Below, one piece after another: positions 161 to 9,557 of a DNA stretch of 39,218 nt. The translations under genes and the position numbers were made by a program. Positions within the stretch are counted from its first letter, which is position 1. Every line of letters begins with the position of its first letter. The notes beneath the pieces were generated by a model. That model was given only the letters and a program-made list of their open reading frames with translations, was not told where the DNA came from and searched no databases. This stretch comes from Escherichia phage T7, in sequence record MZ375237.1. One strand, written 5' to 3'.

Positions 161-172
161 ACCTGTTACAGT

Positions 173-2607: not shown

Positions 2608-5259
2608 ATGAACACGATTAACATCGCTAAGAACGACTTCTCTGACATCGAACTGGCTGCTATCCCGTTCAACACTCTGGCTGACCATTACGGTGAGCGT
2701 TTAGCTCGCGAACAGTTGGCCCTTGAGCATGAGTCTTACGAGATGGGTGAAGCACGCTTCCGCAAGATGTTTGAGCGTCAACTTAAAGCTGGTGAGGTTG
2801 CGGATAACGCTGCCGCCAAGCCTCTCATCACTACCCTACTCCCTAAGATGATTGCACGCATCAACGACTGGTTTGAGGAAGTGAAAGCTAAGCGCGGCAA
2901 GCGCCCGACAGCCTTCCAGTTCCTGCAAGAAATCAAGCCGGAAGCCGTAGCGTACATCACCATTAAGACCACTCTGGCTTGCCTAACCAGTGCTGACAAT
3001 ACAACCGTTCAGGCTGTAGCAAGCGCAATCGGTCGGGCCATTGAGGACGAGGCTCGCTTCGGTCGTATCCGTGACCTTGAAGCTAAGCACTTCAAGAAAA
3101 ACGTTGAGGAACAACTCAACAAGCGCGTAGGGCACGTCTACAAGAAAGCATTTATGCGAGTTGTCGAGGCTGACATGCTCTCTAAGGGTCTACTCGGTGG
3201 CGAGGCGTGGTCTTCGTGGCATAAGGAAGACTCTATTCATGTAGGAGTACGCTGCATCGAGATGCTCATTGAGTCAACCGGAATGGTTAGCTTACACCGC
3301 CAAAATGCTGGCGTAGTAGGTCAAGACTCTGAGACTATCGAACTCGCACCTGAATACGCTGAGGCTATCGCAACCCGTGCAGGTGCGCTGGCTGGCATCT
3401 CTCCGATGTTCCAACCTTGCGTAGTTCCTCCTAAGCCGTGGACTGGCATTACTGGTGGTGGCTATTGGGCTAACGGTCGTCGTCCTCTGGCGCTGGTGCG
3501 TACTCACAGTAAGAAAGCACTGATGCGCTACGAAGACGTTTACATGCCTGAGGTGTACAAAGCGATTAACATTGCGCAAAACACCGCATGGAAAATCAAC
3601 AAGAAAGTCCTAGCGGTCGCCAACGTAATCACCAAGTGGAAGCATTGTCCGGTCGAGGACATCCCTGCGATTGAGCGTGAAGAACTCCCGATGAAACCGG
3701 AAGACATCGACATGAATCCTGAGGCTCTCACCGCGTGGAAACGTGCTGCCGCTGCTGTGTACCGCAAGGACAAGGCTCGCAAGTCTCGCCGTATCAGCCT
3801 TGAGTTCATGCTTGAGCAAGCCAATAAGTTTGCTAACCATAAGGCCATCTGGTTCCCTTACAACATGGACTGGCGCGGTCGTGTTTACGCTGTGTCAATG
3901 TTCAACCCGCAAGGTAACGATATGACCAAAGGACTGCTTACGCTGGCGAAAGGTAAACCAATCGGTAAGGAAGGTTACTACTGGCTGAAAATCCACGGTG
4001 CAAACTGTGCGGGTGTCGATAAGGTTCCGTTCCCTGAGCGCATCAAGTTCATTGAGGAAAACCACGAGAACATCATGGCTTGCGCTAAGTCTCCACTGGA
4101 GAACACTTGGTGGGCTGAGCAAGATTCTCCGTTCTGCTTCCTTGCGTTCTGCTTTGAGTACGCTGGGGTACAGCACCACGGCCTGAGCTATAACTGCTCC
4201 CTTCCGCTGGCGTTTGACGGGTCTTGCTCTGGCATCCAGCACTTCTCCGCGATGCTCCGAGATGAGGTAGGTGGTCGCGCGGTTAACTTGCTTCCTAGTG
4301 AAACCGTTCAGGACATCTACGGGATTGTTGCTAAGAAAGTCAACGAGATTCTACAAGCAGACGCAATCAATGGGACCGATAACGAAGTAGTTACCGTGAC
4401 CGATGAGAACACTGGTGAAATCTCTGAGAAAGTCAAGCTGGGCACTAAGGCACTGGCTGGTCAATGGCTGGCTTACGGTGTTACTCGCAGTGTGACTAAG
4501 CGTTCAGTCATGACGCTGGCTTACGGGTCCAAAGAGTTCGGCTTCCGTCAACAAGTGCTGGAAGATACCATTCAGCCAGCTATTGATTCCGGCAAGGGTC
4601 TGATGTTCACTCAGCCGAATCAGGCTGCTGGATACATGGCTAAGCTGATTTGGGAATCTGTGAGCGTGACGGTGGTAGCTGCGGTTGAAGCAATGAACTG
4701 GCTTAAGTCTGCTGCTAAGCTGCTGGCTGCTGAGGTCAAAGATAAGAAGACTGGAGAGATTCTTCGCAAGCGTTGCGCTGTGCATTGGGTAACTCCTGAT
4801 GGTTTCCCTGTGTGGCAGGAATACAAGAAGCCTATTCAGACGCGCTTGAACCTGATGTTCCTCGGTCAGTTCCGCTTACAGCCTACCATTAACACCAACA
4901 AAGATAGCGAGATTGATGCACACAAACAGGAGTCTGGTATCGCTCCTAACTTTGTACACAGCCAAGACGGTAGCCACCTTCGTAAGACTGTAGTGTGGGC
5001 ACACGAGAAGTACGGAATCGAATCTTTTGCACTGATTCACGACTCCTTCGGTACCATTCCGGCTGACGCTGCGAACCTGTTCAAAGCAGTGCGCGAAACT
5101 ATGGTTGACACATATGAGTCTTGTGATGTACTGGCTGATTTCTACGACCAGTTCGCTGACCAGTTGCACGAGTCTCAATTGGACAAAATGCCAGCACTTC
5201 CGGCTAAAGGTAACTTGAACCTCCGTGACATCTTAGAGTCGGACTTCGCGTTCGCGTAA
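2608..5259 (+). CDS. 1: Gene 1, T7 RNA polymerase
   Basis: 883-aa ORF MNTINIAKNDFSDIELAAIPFNTLADHYGERLAREQLALEHESYEMGEARFRKMFERQ... ending ...SDFAFA. Confidence 0.98.
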   Translation: MNTINIAKNDFSDIELAAIPFNTLADHYGERLAREQLALEHESYEMGEARFRKMFERQLKAGEVADNAAAKPLITTLLPKMIARINDWFEEVKAKRGKRPTAFQFLQEIKPEAVAYITIKTTLACLTSADNTTVQAVASAIGRAIEDEARFGRIRDLEAKHFKKNVEEQLNKRVGHVYKKAFMRVVEADMLSKGLLGGEAWSSWHKEDSIHVGVRCIEMLIESTGMVSLHRQNAGVVGQDSETIELAPEYAEAIATRAGALAGISPMFQPCVVPPKPWTGITGGGYWANGRRPLALVRTHSKKALMRYEDVYMPEVYKAINIAQNTAWKINKKVLAVANVITKWKHCPVEDIPAIEREELPMKPEDIDMNPEALTAWKRAAAAVYRKDKARKSRRISLEFMLEQANKFANHKAIWFPYNMDWRGRVYAVSMFNPQGNDMTKGLLTLAKGKPIGKEGYYWLKIHGANCAGVDKVPFPERIKFIEENHENIMACAKSPLENTWWAEQDSPFCFLAFCFEYAGVQHHGLSYNCSLPLAFDGSCSGIQHFSAMLRDEVGGRAVNLLPSETVQDIYGIVAKKVNEILQADAINGTDNEVVTVTDENTGEISEKVKLGTKALAGQWLAYGVTRSVTKRSVMTLAYGSKEFGFRQQVLEDTIQPAIDSGKGLMFTQPNQAAGYMAKLIWESVSVTVVAAVEAMNWLKSAAKLLAAEVKDKKTGEILRKRCAVHWVTPDGFPVWQEYKKPIQTRLNLMFLGQFRLQPTINTNKDSEIDAHKQESGIAPNFVHSQDGSHLRKTVVWAHEKYGIESFALIHDSFGTIPADAANLFKAVRETMVDTYESCDVLADFYDQFADQLHESQLDKMPALPAKGNLNLRDILESDFAFA

Positions 5260-5267
5260 CGCCAAAT

Positions 5268-5290
5268 CAATACGACTCACTATAGAGGGA
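5268..5290 (+). promoter_or_regulatory. T7 promoter phi1.1A (+1 at 5285)
   Basis: caatacgactcactatagaggga. Confidence 0.85.
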
Positions 5291-5342: not shown

Positions 5343-5365
5343 TAATACGACTCACTATAGGAGAA
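5343..5365 (+). promoter_or_regulatory. T7 promoter phi1.1B (+1 at 5360)
   Basis: taatacgactcactataggaga. Confidence 0.9.
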
Positions 5366-5573: not shown

Positions 5574-5831
5574 ATGGGACGTTTATATAGTGGTAATCTG
5601 GCAGCATTCAAGGCAGCAACAAACAAGCTGTTCCAGTTAGACTTAGCGGTCATTTATGATGACTGGTATGATGCCTATACAAGAAAAGATTGCATACGGT
5701 TACGTATTGAGGACAGGAGTGGAAACCTGATTGATACTAGCACCTTCTACCACCACGACGAGGACGTTCTGTTCAATATGTGTACTGATTGGTTGAACCA
5801 TATGTATGACCAGTTGAAGGACTGGAAGTAA
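5574..5831 (+). CDS. 1.2: Gene 1.2, inhibitor of host dGTPase
   Basis: MGRLYSGNLAAFKAATNKLFQ...; start chosen 2 nt after 1.1 stop with gggaggg RBS. Confidence 0.88.
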   Translation: MGRLYSGNLAAFKAATNKLFQLDLAVIYDDWYDAYTRKDCIRLRIEDRSGNLIDTSTFYHHDEDVLFNMCTDWLNHMYDQLKDWK

Positions 5832-5851
5832 TACGACTCAGTATAGGGACA
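5829..5851 (+). promoter_or_regulatory. T7 promoter phi1.3 (+1 at 5846)
   Basis: taatacgactcagtatagggaca; its TAA is the gene 1.2 stop. Confidence 0.85.
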
Positions 5852-5911: not shown

Positions 5912-6991
5912 ATGATGAACATTAAGACTAACCCGTTTAAAGCCGTGTCTTTCGTAGAGTCTGCCATTAAGAAGGCTCTGGATAACGCTGGGTATCTTAT
6001 CGCTGAAATCAAGTACGATGGTGTACGCGGGAACATCTGCGTAGACAATACTGCTAACAGTTACTGGCTCTCTCGTGTATCTAAAACGATTCCGGCACTG
6101 GAGCACTTAAACGGGTTTGATGTTCGCTGGAAGCGTCTACTGAACGATGACCGTTGCTTCTACAAAGATGGCTTTATGCTTGATGGGGAACTCATGGTCA
6201 AGGGCGTAGACTTTAACACAGGGTCCGGCCTACTGCGTACCAAATGGACTGACACGAAGAACCAAGAGTTCCATGAAGAGTTATTCGTTGAACCAATCCG
6301 TAAGAAAGATAAAGTTCCCTTTAAGCTGCACACTGGACACCTTCACATAAAACTGTACGCTATCCTCCCGCTGCACATCGTGGAGTCTGGAGAAGACTGT
6401 GATGTCATGACGTTGCTCATGCAGGAACACGTTAAGAACATGCTGCCTCTGCTACAGGAATACTTCCCTGAAATCGAATGGCAAGCGGCTGAATCTTACG
6501 AGGTCTACGATATGGTAGAACTACAGCAACTGTACGAGCAGAAGCGAGCAGAAGGCCATGAGGGTCTCATTGTGAAAGACCCGATGTGTATCTATAAGCG
6601 CGGTAAGAAATCTGGCTGGTGGAAAATGAAACCTGAGAACGAAGCTGACGGTATCATTCAGGGTCTGGTATGGGGTACAAAAGGTCTGGCTAATGAAGGT
6701 AAAGTGATTGGTTTTGAGGTGCTTCTTGAGAGTGGTCGTTTAGTTAACGCCACGAATATCTCTCGCGCCTTAATGGATGAGTTCACTGAGACAGTAAAAG
6801 AGGCCACCCTAAGTCAATGGGGATTCTTTAGCCCATACGGTATTGGCGACAACGATGCTTGTACTATTAACCCTTACGATGGCTGGGCGTGTCAAATTAG
6901 CTACATGGAGGAAACACCTGATGGCTCTTTGCGGCACCCATCGTTCGTAATGTTCCGTGGCACCGAGGACAACCCTCAAGAGAAAATGTAA
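5912..6991 (+). CDS. 1.3: Gene 1.3, ATP-dependent DNA ligase
   Basis: 359-aa ORF with ligase adenylation motif EIKYDGVRG. Confidence 0.95.
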   Translation: MMNIKTNPFKAVSFVESAIKKALDNAGYLIAEIKYDGVRGNICVDNTANSYWLSRVSKTIPALEHLNGFDVRWKRLLNDDRCFYKDGFMLDGELMVKGVDFNTGSGLLRTKWTDTKNQEFHEELFVEPIRKKDKVPFKLHTGHLHIKLYAILPLHIVESGEDCDVMTLLMQEHVKNMLPLLQEYFPEIEWQAAESYEVYDMVELQQLYEQKRAEGHEGLIVKDPMCIYKRGKKSGWWKMKPENEADGIIQGLVWGTKGLANEGKVIGFEVLLESGRLVNATNISRALMDEFTETVKEATLSQWGFFSPYGIGDNDACTINPYDGWACQISYMEETPDGSLRHPSFVMFRGTEDNPQEKM

Positions 6992-6995
6992 TCAC

Positions 6996-7030
6996 ACTGG
7001 CTCACCTTCGGGTGGGCCTTTCTGCGTTTA
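6996..7030 (+). terminator. Early terminator TE for host RNA polymerase
   Basis: GC-rich hairpin ggctcaccttcgggtgggcc followed by tttctgcgttt. Confidence 0.85.
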
Positions 7031-7041
7031 TAAGGAGACAC

Positions 7042-7064
7042 TTTTACGACTCACTAAAGGAGGT
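7042..7064 (+). promoter_or_regulatory. T7 promoter phi1.5, variant with TTT at -17..-15 (+1 at 7059)
   Basis: tttTACGACTCACTAAAGGAGG; core -14..+6 intact, upstream AT-rich triplet altered by the deletion junction. Confidence 0.75.
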
Positions 7065-7071
7065 ACACACC

Positions 7072-7161
7072 ATGATGTACTTAATGCCATTACTCATCGT
7101 CATTGTAGGATGCCTTGCGCTCCACTGTAGCGATGATGATATGCCAGATGGTCACGCTTAA
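7072..7161 (+). CDS. 1.5: Gene 1.5, small protein of unknown function
   Basis: 29-aa ORF MMYLMPLLIVIVGCLALHCSDDDMPDGHA behind aaggagg RBS. Confidence 0.8.
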   Translation: MMYLMPLLIVIVGCLALHCSDDDMPDGHA

Positions 7162-7181
7162 TACGACTCACTAAAGGAGAC
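7159..7181 (+). promoter_or_regulatory. T7 promoter phi1.6 (+1 at 7176)
   Basis: taatacgactcactaaaggagaca; TAA is the gene 1.5 stop. Confidence 0.88.
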
Positions 7182-7186
7182 ACTAT

Positions 7187-7447
7187 ATGTTTCGACTTCA
7201 TTACAACAAAAGCGTTAAGAATTTCACGGTTCGCCGTGCTGACCGTTCAATCGTATGTGCGAGCGAGCGCCGAGCTAAGATACCTCTTATTGGTAACACA
7301 GTTCCTTTGGCACCGAGCGTCCACATCATTATCACCCGTGGTGACTTTGAGAAAGCAATAGACAAGAAACGTCCGGTTCTTAGTGTGGCAGTGACCCGCT
7401 TCCCGTTCGTCCGTCTGTTACTCAAACGAATCAAGGAGGTGTTCTGA
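7187..7447 (+). CDS. 1.6: Gene 1.6, unknown function
   Basis: 86-aa [24 protein letters not shown]... Confidence 0.85.
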
Positions 7448-8029
7448 TGGGACTGTTAGATGGTGAAGCCTGGGAAAAAGAAAACCCGCCAGTACAAGCA
7501 ACTGGGTGTATAGCTTGCTTAGAGAAAGATGACCGTTATCCACACACCTGTAACAAAGGAGCTAACGATATGACCGAACGTGAACAAGAGATGATCATTA
7601 AGTTGATAGACAATAATGAAGGTCGCCCAGATGATTTGAATGGCTGCGGTATTCTCTGCTCCAATGTCCCTTGCCACCTCTGCCCCGCAAATAACGATCA
7701 AAAGATAACCTTAGGTGAAATCCGAGCGATGGACCCACGTAAACCACATCTGAATAAACCTGAGGTAACTCCTACAGATGACCAGCCTTCCGCTGAGACA
7801 ATCGAAGGTGTCACTAAGCCTTCCCACTACATGCTGTTTGACGACATTGAGGCTATCGAAGTGATTGCTCGTTCAATGACCGTTGAGCAGTTCAAGGGAT
7901 ACTGCTTCGGTAACATCTTAAAGTACAGACTACGTGCTGGTAAGAAGTCAGAGTTAGCGTACTTAGAGAAAGACCTAGCGAAAGCAGACTTCTATAAAGA
8001 ACTCTTTGAGAAACATAAGGATAAATGTT

Positions 8030-9137: not shown

Positions 9138-9557
9138 GTGGAACTGCGGGAGAAAATCCTTGAGCGAATCAAGGTGACTTCCTCTGGGTGTTGGGAGTGG
9201 CAGGGCGCTACGAACAATAAAGGGTACGGGCAGGTGTGGTGCAGCAATACCGGAAAGGTTGTCTACTGTCATCGCGTAATGTCTAATGCTCCGAAAGGTT
9301 CTACCGTCCTGCACTCCTGTGATAATCCATTATGTTGTAACCCTGAACACCGTTCCATAGGAACTCCAAAAGAGAACTCCACTGACATGGTAAATAAGGG
9401 TCGCTCACACAAGGGGTATAAACTTTCAGACGAAGACGTAATGGCAATCATGGAGTCCAGCGAGTCCAATGTATCCTTAGCTCGCACCTATGGTGTCTCC
9501 CAACAGACTATTTGTGATATACGCAAAGGGAGGCGACATGGCAGGTTACGGCGCTAA
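9138..9557 (+). CDS. 2.8: Gene 2.8, HNH-endonuclease-like protein (GTG start)
   Basis: HNH-type motif HSCDNPLCCNPEH; clear paralog of gene 7.7. Confidence 0.85.
   Translation: MELREKILERIKVTSSGCWEWQGATNNKGYGQVWCSNTGKVVYCHRVMSNAPKGSTVLHSCDNPLCCNPEHRSIGTPKENSTDMVNKGRSHKGYKLSDEDVMAIMESSESNVSLARTYGVSQQTICDIRKGRRHGRLRR

What the first reader, a model, noticed from the sequence alone, without database searches (positions are those of the whole stretch)
7042..7064. phi1.5 promoter carries TTT instead of TAA at -17..-15
Because the deletion removed the TAA shared between gene 1.4 and phi1.5, the promoter now reads tttTACGACTCACTAAAGGAGG. Positions -17 to -13 form the AT-rich element contacted by T7 RNA polymerase. 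The replacement keeps it AT-rich but changes -16 and -15, so I expect reduced rather than abolished activity. Gene 1.5 and downstream class II genes still have phi1.6 only 117 bp downstream.
Basis: partly seen in the sequence, partly recalled or inferred. Interest (0 to 1): 0.55.

Follow-up and report, generated by a model that had tools for sequence, protein, structure and literature searches.

The report
Engineered deletion scar clips T7 promoter φ1.5
The window is a laboratory genome-reduced phage T7 in which a designed start-to-stop deletion of gene 1.4 also removed the first three bases of the neighbouring promoter φ1.5; this leaves a slightly off-consensus promoter that is probably mildly weakened, and is an engineering by-product, not a new biological feature.

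Summary
Window 7042-7064 reads TTTTACGACTCACTAAAGGAGGT, where reference T7 φ1.5 reads TAATACGACTCACTAAAGGAGGT. The cause is a 156-bp deletion of reference 7608-7763, which is exactly the gene 1.4 ORF from ATG through TAA. That TAA is also φ1.5 positions -17..-15. Only -16 and -15 change (A>T each).

The window is T7 minus two deletions. It belongs to the GenBank series of CRISPR-built genome-reduced T7 clones (CiPGr, Yuan et al. 2022), whose "cassette-gene" templates delete whole ORFs. The identical junction is in 64 records, from transfer 30 to transfer 300, and never reverted. It has no hit in IMG/VR. Natural relatives lacking gene 1.4 (13a, phiA1122) keep TAA.

Published in vitro data (Komura 2018) give 68% of consensus activity for each single A>T. 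G or C at these positions gives 4-14%. A multiplicative estimate for TTT is about 0.4-0.46, untested. "Reduced, not abolished" is therefore plausible.

One detail is wrong: gene 1.5 lies upstream of φ1.6, so its back-up is read-through from φ1.1A/1.1B/1.3. Interest is low: this is a known strain and a known promoter.

The parts
7042..7064 (+). T7 RNA polymerase class II promoter φ1.5 (-17..+6), variant TTTTACGACTCACTAAAGGAGGT; +1 = G7059
   Evidence: Homologous to the annotated φ1.5 of NC_001604 (+1 at 7778). Identical from -14 to +6.
7042..7044 (+). TTT at -17..-15, replacing TAA. These are the last 3 bases of the gene 1.4 leader (reference 7605-7607).
7044..7045 (.). Deletion junction. Reference 7608-7763 (156 bp, the gene 1.4 ORF from ATG to TAA) is missing between these two bases, with no microhomology.
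   Evidence: The same junction is in 64 GenBank records of the CiPGr T7 series.
7031..7037 (+). Orphaned ribosome-binding site of the deleted gene 1.4 (TAAGGAG). No start codon follows it now.
   Evidence: Absent from natural 1.4-less phages.
6999..7029 (+). E. coli RNA polymerase terminator TE: hairpin 6999-7018 plus a T-rich tail. Untouched by the deletion.
   Evidence: Annotated at reference 7588. RNA fold -18.3 kcal/mol, z = -3.2.
7072..7161 (+). Gene 1.5 (29 aa), intact. It lies between φ1.5 and φ1.6.
7159..7181 (+). Promoter φ1.6 (+1 = 7176), unchanged. Its TAA at -17..-15 is the stop codon of gene 1.5.
5268..5290 (+). Promoter φ1.1A (+1 = 5285), unchanged. A source of read-through transcripts across φ1.5 and gene 1.5.
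5343..5365 (+). Promoter φ1.1B (+1 = 5360), unchanged.
5829..5851 (+). Promoter φ1.3 (+1 = 5846), unchanged.
5912..6991 (+). Gene 1.3 (DNA ligase), upstream neighbour, intact.

Best explanation
Window 7042-7064 is promoter φ1.5 of a laboratory genome-reduced T7 clone from the CiPGr series, probably clone T7_30L (MZ375237). A Cas9-selected deletion, templated by a homologous-recombination cassette designed to remove 'the entire gene', took out gene 1.4 from its ATG through its TAA. In T7 that TAA doubles as φ1.5 -17..-15. The promoter therefore now starts with the last three bases of the 1.4 leader, TTT. This keeps T at -17 and changes A>T at -16 and -15. All specificity and initiation determinants (-14..+6) are intact, so T7 RNA polymerase should still bind and start at G7059. 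The AT-rich recognition loop reads -17..-13 through the minor groove, where A.T>T.A swaps are the least disruptive changes. I infer a modest loss of initiation, roughly two-fold with a plausible range from none to about seven-fold. Little phenotype is expected, because φ1.1A, φ1.1B and φ1.3 read through this region (TE stops only the host polymerase) and φ1.6 fires 117 bp downstream. Shown here: the sequence, the deletion boundaries, membership of the strain series, persistence of the junction, and its absence in nature. Inferred: the size of the activity loss and its near-neutrality.
For: The deletion equals the gene 1.4 CDS exactly and has no microhomology. The window equals NC_001604 minus 563 bp and 156 bp, plus 14 single-base differences at 13 sites. 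The identical junction is in 64 records named 'Mutant Escherichia phage T7 clone T7_30S ... T7_300L.2'; the 60 listed all show 100% identity over -37..+42. It occurs in two different left-end deletion backgrounds, the window and T7_30S, as expected of a templated edit. The CiPGr paper describes 2x50-bp templates that delete whole genes, and reports unplanned gp0.3-0.6 deletions like the window's 563-bp one. MZ375237 is the one accession missing from the collection. IMG/VR gives 0 hits for the junction and 0 hits for TTTTACGACTCACTAWAG. Komura 2018 S2 data: -16 A>T 0.68, -15 A>T 0.68, against 0.04-0.14 for G or C at those positions. The multiplicative estimate is 0.40-0.46 (extremes 0.14-1.2). 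TTT plus -13G plus -2A still gives 0.12. Natural φ4.7 has T at -16. Vi06 φ1.5 has CGA. Upstream promoters are intact. TE is the host-polymerase terminator. No reversion occurred by transfer 300, although other promoters did mutate in the late clone.
Against: The exact TTT variant was not measured in the part of the Komura dataset that is held. Those values are single-barcode in vitro measurements in a class III consensus context, and replicate variants differ up to two-fold. TTTT makes an A-tract that could alter minor-groove geometry non-additively (inference). No natural T7 promoter among the 17 has T at -15. φ1.5 was among the few promoters under strong selection when the polymerase specificity was changed, so even a two-fold loss could matter in some settings. 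The CiPGr cassette list was not available to confirm the template sequence.
Confidence: 0.72

Rival explanations
1. The TTT variant is functionally neutral: φ1.5 fires at essentially wild-type rate in infected cells, so there is no promoter phenotype at all.
For: A>T at -16 and -15 are the mildest substitutions at these positions. In one background, -15T raised activity (TGT 37 against TGA 24). The junction never reverted in 64 sequenced clones up to transfer 300. The AT-only composition is kept.
Against: Both single substitutions measured 0.68 of consensus, and 0.31-0.77 in most other backgrounds. TAA is kept in 10 of 11 distinct natural φ1.5 contexts, including phages that have no gene 1.4 stop codon to maintain.
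Confidence: 0.18
2. The promoter is effectively inactivated. Gene 1.5 and downstream genes rely entirely on read-through transcripts and on φ1.6.
For: Two simultaneous changes fall in a contacted element. -15 is A in all 17 T7 promoters. A possible A-tract effect is an inference.
Against: A variant with TTT plus two additional substitutions still gives 12% of consensus in vitro. The singles are 68% each. The specificity region -12..-5 and the initiation region are untouched.
Confidence: 0.05
3. The deletion is spontaneous, or a natural polymorphism, and not a designed edit.
For: T7 readily generates deletions. The window's other deletion (563 bp) is unplanned and not ORF-precise. Gene 1.4 is naturally absent from many relatives.
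Against: The end points coincide to the base with the ATG and TAA of the annotated CDS and share no repeat. The same junction appears in different deletion backgrounds. It is found only in the MZ3752xx and OL9647xx mutant series and has 0 hits in IMG/VR. Natural 1.4-less phages have a different junction that also removes the 1.4 RBS and keeps TAA.
Confidence: 0.03
4. The junction is a sequencing or assembly artefact.
For: None found.
Against: The junction is identical in 64 separately deposited genome records.
Confidence: 0.01

Closest known systems
Wild-type T7 class II promoter φ1.5 (NC_001604, +1 at 7778)
   Same: Same locus, identical from -14 to +6 and beyond, with the same downstream gene 1.5.
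   Different: -16 and -15 are T instead of A. The -22..-18 flank is GACAC instead of ACTGG. Gene 1.4 is gone, and TE now lies 156 bp closer.
Natural gene-1.4-less Teseptimaviruses (phage 13a, Yersinia phage phiA1122 and relatives)
   Same: Ligase, then TE, then φ1.5, then gene 1.5, with no gene 1.4.
   Different: Their TE tail runs straight into TAATACGACTC: TAA is kept and the 1.4 RBS is absent. The window keeps the RBS and has TTT.
Single-substitution T7 promoter variants TTATACG... and TATTACG... (Komura et al. 2018, PMC5937735)
   Same: The same base changes at -16 and -15, each measured at 68% of consensus in vitro.
   Different: They were measured singly, in a class III-type consensus context. 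The window carries both changes together in a class II promoter (-2 A, +3..+6 AGGT).
T7 φ4.7 (CTATT at -17..-13) and Salmonella phage Vi06 φ1.5 (CGA at -17..-15)
   Same: Natural promoters that depart from TAA in the AT-rich element. φ4.7 has T at -16.
   Different: Neither has T at -15, and neither results from engineering.
CiPGr 'cassette-gene' deletions (Yuan et al. 2022, PMC9825161)
   Same: A whole-ORF deletion made with 50-bp arms under Cas9 selection, in the same strain series.
   Different: The paper says regulatory elements were not targeted. Its main text does not mention gene 1.4 or the clipping of φ1.5.
Refactored T7.1 (Chan, Kosuri and Endy 2005; GenBank DQ100054)
   Same: It deals with the same problem of overlapping coding and regulatory elements in T7. 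This is from my own knowledge; the record was seen.
   Different: T7.1 deliberately separated such overlaps so that parts could be removed cleanly. Here the overlap was cut through.

Membership tests
T7 RNA polymerase promoter (T7 group, class II) | Specificity and binding core at -12..-5 matching CGACTCAC | tested here: met
   Exact match, identical to reference φ1.5.
T7 RNA polymerase promoter (T7 group, class II) | Unwinding and initiation region TAAA/TATA followed by G at +1 | tested here: met
   TAAA then GGAGGT, unchanged.
T7 RNA polymerase promoter (T7 group, class II) | A+T-only element at -17..-13 | tested here: met
   TTTTA is all A/T.
T7 RNA polymerase promoter (T7 group, class II) | Consensus TAATA at -17..-13 | tested here: not met
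   3 of 5 positions match. -16 and -15 are T. -15 is A in all 17 reference promoters. TTT has 0 hits in IMG/VR next to this core.
T7 RNA polymerase promoter (T7 group, class II) | Positional homology to an annotated promoter | tested here: met
   Aligns to φ1.5 of NC_001604 and of phage 13a.
T7 RNA polymerase promoter (T7 group, class II) | Transcripts initiate at +1 with T7 RNA polymerase | not testable with these tools
   Only indirect evidence: published in vitro activities of related variants.
Designed CiPGr whole-gene deletion | End points equal the annotated ORF start and stop | tested here: met
   Reference 7608-7763 equals the gene 1.4 CDS.
Designed CiPGr whole-gene deletion | Same junction recurs across clones and genetic backgrounds of the published series | tested here: met
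   64 records. T7_30S and the window differ at the left end but share the junction.
Designed CiPGr whole-gene deletion | Junction equals the synthesised 100-nt repair template | not testable with these tools
   The supplementary cassette tables are not held.
Natural gene-1.4-less arrangement (13a / phiA1122 type) | TE tail directly abuts TAATACGACTC, with no 1.4 RBS | tested here: not met
   The window keeps TATAAGGAGACAC and has TTT.
Spontaneous T7 deletion between short direct repeats | Repeat or microhomology at the end points | tested here: not met
   No shared base at the 156-bp junction. The 563-bp deletion does show a GG within an imperfect repeat.

The most novel reading that the evidence does not exclude
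The clipped φ1.5 is a real, fitness-relevant down-mutation of a 'hub' class II promoter. It helped drive the later consensus-ward promoter changes seen in the same lineage (φOL +1 A>G, already in this window; φ1.1A -17 C>T by transfer 300). Under this reading the phage rebalanced its transcription programme elsewhere and did not repair the scar.
Probability: 0.07. Interest if true: 0.35.

Novelty: already known. Interest (0 to 1): 0.12.

Why it matters
The biological significance is small: this is a by-product of engineering in a published strain. It does carry a practical lesson. In T7, 7 of the 17 phage promoters (φ1.3, φ1.5, φ1.6, φ2.5, φ4.3, φ9, φ17) use the upstream gene's TAA stop codon as their -17..-15. 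Any automated 'ATG-to-stop' deletion design therefore silently edits a promoter. Phenotypes scored as 'loss of gene 1.4' in such libraries are confounded by a φ1.5 change. Natural 1.4-less phages show the clean solution, which is to keep the TAA. The clone series also provides a ready-made test of how much -16 and -15 matter in vivo.

Tried and rejected
- IMG/VR exact scans gave 0 hits for the junction and 0 hits for any TTT-prefixed T7 core, so a natural origin was rejected.
- I searched the GenBank phage collection for analogous ORF-precise junctions that would clip φ1.6 (deletion of gene 1.5) or φ1.3 (deletion of gene 1.2). No isolate has them, so promoter clipping in sequenced clones is limited to φ1.5.
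- I looked for a direct measurement of the TTT double mutant. It is not in the held part of Komura's S2 file. No supplements are held for the 2026 bioRxiv library that designed 1- and 2-point mutations across the T7 promoter core, or for the CiPGr paper. Patwardhan 2009 is not held. PRSeq covers only -12..-7.
- The sigma-70 promoter and intrinsic terminator scan of 6850-7300 found nothing new created by the junction.
- No start codon follows the orphaned 1.4 RBS, so no new ORF is created (read directly).
- A text search for the accession number found no paper. The link to the CiPGr study rests on clone names, the series and the methods.

Full report
**Observation**

Window 7042-7064 reads TTTTACGACTCACTAAAGGAGGT. 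The T7 promoter core ACGACTCACTAWAG occurs 16 times on the + strand (up to 2 mismatches) against 0.66 expected from shuffles, and this copy matches exactly. With +1 at G7059, -17..-15 are 7042-7044 (TTT). The next promoter starts at 7176, which is 117 bp downstream. The description and coordinates are correct.

**What the window is**

- The window is phage T7. It aligns end to end with NC_001604 (39,937 bp), apart from two deletions and 14 single-base differences at 13 sites.
- The first deletion is 563 bp, near window 1341/1342.
- The second is 156 bp, between window 7044 and 7045.
- The 156 bp are reference 7608-7763, which is exactly the annotated gene 1.4 CDS from its ATG through its TAA. 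The two end points share no base.
- In the reference, that TAA (7761-7763) is also φ1.5 -17..-15.
- After the deletion, these positions are filled by the last three bases of the 1.4 leader, TTT. T at -17 is kept by coincidence, and -16 and -15 change A>T.
- The -22..-18 flank changes from ACTGG to GACAC, with equal A+T content. Everything from -14 onward is unchanged.

**Origin**

- The identical junction is present in 64 GenBank records; the 60 listed all show 100% identity over -37..+42.
- The listed records all belong to the MZ3752xx and OL9647xx series. The five whose descriptions I retrieved are 'Mutant Escherichia phage T7 clone' T7_30S, T7_40S, T7_300L.2 and T7_5t1, plus T7_10S and T7_20S, which still carry gene 1.4.
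- MZ375237, which by the numbering would be T7_30L, is the only accession of that run absent from the collection. I infer it is the window itself.
- The clone names match the CiPGr study (Yuan et al., NAR 2022, PMC9825161). Pooled Cas9 plasmids there carry a spacer and a 2x50-bp repair template. [quoted passage not shown]
- The paper also reports unplanned large deletions in gp0.3-0.6. The window's 563-bp deletion fits this: it is not ORF-precise and sits at an imperfect repeat sharing GG.
- T7_30S carries the same 1.4 junction but a different left-end deletion. A templated edit would be expected to recur in different backgrounds like this.
- The authors state that they did not target likely regulatory elements. 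The main text does not mention gene 1.4 or this promoter. I could not check the cassette table.

**Is TTT native anywhere?**

No.

- IMG/VR has no match to the junction and none to TTTTACGACTCACTAWAG.
- Among natural homologues of φ1.5 recovered from IMG/VR, ten distinct sequence contexts (eleven loci) have TAA and one has CGA (Salmonella phage Vi06). None has TTT.
- Many natural relatives lack gene 1.4 altogether, including phage 13a, phiA1122, YpP-Y and C5.
- In 13a and phiA1122, the tail of terminator TE runs straight into TAATACGACTC. TAA is therefore kept even though no stop codon is needed there, and the 1.4 RBS is absent.
- The window instead keeps the orphaned RBS (TAAGGAG, 7031-7037) and has TTT. 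It is not the natural arrangement.

**Expected effect**

[quoted passage not shown] A 2026 sequence-to-function study also finds that TAAT at -17 raises the transcription rate.
- Komura et al. 2018 give in vitro activities (RNA/DNA reads). The consensus mean is 169.

| Variant | Activity (reads ratio) | Fraction of consensus |
|---|---|---|
| -16 A>T | 114.5 | 0.68 |
| -15 A>T | 115.7 | 0.68 |
| -16 A>G | 26 and 22 | 0.14 |
| -16 A>C | 17 and 9 | 0.08 |
| -15 A>C | 7.2 | 0.04 |
| -15 A>G | 6.8 | 0.04 |
| -2 T>A (the class II base) | 161 and 138 | 0.88 |

- A>T is thus by far the best-tolerated change at both positions. From general knowledge, this fits minor-groove read-out, which barely distinguishes A.T from T.A.
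- In matched backgrounds, the -16T factor is 0.47-0.77 and the -15T factor is 0.31-1.56. The multiplicative prediction for TTT is 0.40-0.46 of the parental promoter, with extremes of 0.14-1.2.
- A variant with TTT plus -13G and -2A still gives 12% of consensus. TTT therefore cannot by itself abolish activity.
- The exact double mutant is not in the held part of the dataset. The two-fold figure is an inference.

**Consequences in the phage**

- φ1.1A, φ1.1B and φ1.3 are unchanged in the window and lie upstream on the same strand.
- TE is the terminator for the host polymerase, and the T7 polymerase terminator lies after gene 10. Phage-polymerase transcripts therefore read through to gene 1.5 and beyond.
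- φ1.6 is intact, but it lies downstream of gene 1.5 (7072-7161).
- The TTT junction is unchanged in clones from transfer 30 to transfer 300.
- Other promoters did acquire point mutations over the same period. φOL +1 A>G is already in the window. In T7_300L.2, φ1.1A shows -17 C>T, φ9 shows -11 G>A and φ10 shows +1 G>T.
- This argues against strong selection to repair φ1.5, though it is not proof.
- As a counterweight, φ1.5 was one of the few promoters that evolved quickly in all lines when T7 was forced to use a polymerase of altered specificity. It is therefore not an unimportant promoter.

**Other checks**

- The junction creates no sigma-70-like promoter or terminator.
- No start codon follows the orphaned RBS.
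- The TE hairpin (6999-7018) is intact.

**Comparison and verdict**

- This is promoter φ1.5 carrying a two-base scar from a designed whole-ORF deletion in a published, publicly deposited strain series. It meets every promoter criterion I could test except the TAATA consensus at -16 and -15.
- It is not a natural variant, not a spontaneous deletion and not an artefact.
- Novelty: already known in kind. The only unremarked point is that the design clipped a promoter.
- The general lesson is that 7 of T7's 17 promoters share their first three bases with the stop codon of the upstream gene, so ATG-to-stop designs edit promoters.
- In the sequenced isolates this happened only at φ1.5. No deletion-1.5 or deletion-1.2 junctions are in the collection.
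- Interest is low (0.12).

Noticed in passing
window 405: φOL +1 is G instead of the reference A (TATAAGGAGA > TATAGGGAGA), a consensus-ward change at the start site. It is absent in clones T7_10S, T7_20S and T7_30S, and present in T7_40S and T7_300L.2, so it arose and persisted during the transfers. Komura's data give +1 G>A = 0.40 of consensus, so A>G may strengthen φOL, which has been implicated in polymerase-driven genome entry.
   Followed up: partly
window ~1341/1342 (reference ~1342-1904 missing): A 563-bp deletion that is not ORF-precise, at an imperfect repeat sharing GG. It removes the end of gene 0.4, gene 0.5, gene 0.6A and most of 0.6B, together with the E. coli B promoter. It leaves a 43-codon fusion ORF from 1278. 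It matches the 'unplanned gp0.3-0.6 large fragment' class reported by the CiPGr authors.
   Followed up: partly
window 3158: A>G gives T7 RNA polymerase Q184R. It is new relative to clone T7_10S and is retained in T7_300L.2. Its function is unknown, and it lies outside residues 93-101, which I recall (not checked here) as the AT-rich recognition loop.
   Followed up: partly
window 9352-9353: An adjacent double substitution TA>GT in gene 2.8 (codon 72, Leu>Arg), new relative to T7_10S. It is possibly a CRISPR-escape change in a targeted non-essential gene; this was not tested.
   Followed up: no
window 15330, 32300, 33453, 35542, 38887: Further changes that are new relative to T7_10S: DNA polymerase R566H, gp16 G809S and A1193V, tail fibre N546K, and an intergenic C>A downstream of φOR. 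Four other differences from the reference (19087, 23966, 25524, 34544) are already present in clone T7_10S.
   Followed up: partly
window 161-162: The two bases just after the 160-bp terminal repeat differ among clones: AT in the reference, AC in the window, CT in T7_40S. This could be a small hotspot at the repeat boundary.
   Followed up: no
reference T7 (L003), promoters φ1.3, φ1.5, φ1.6, φ2.5, φ4.3, φ9, φ17: In 7 of the 17 T7 promoters, the TAA at -17..-15 is the stop codon of the upstream gene (1.2, 1.4, 1.5, 2, 4.2, 8, 16). Whole-ORF deletions at any of these sites would clip a promoter.
   Followed up: yes
L138 (MZ375294, T7_300L.2) +1 positions 5156, 18876, 19915: The late clone carries promoter point mutations: φ1.1A -17 C>T (to consensus), φ9 -11 G>A, and φ10 +1 G>T. 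The φ1.5 scar is unchanged.
   Followed up: partly
L075 1991-1993 (Salmonella phage Vi06, NC_015271): The natural φ1.5 homologue has CGA at -17..-15, a non-A/T start to the 'AT-rich' element. The strength of this promoter is evidently not tightly conserved in nature.
   Followed up: partly
window 7031-7037: The Shine-Dalgarno sequence of the deleted gene 1.4 remains as an orphan just upstream of φ1.5. Natural 1.4-less phages lack it.
   Followed up: yes
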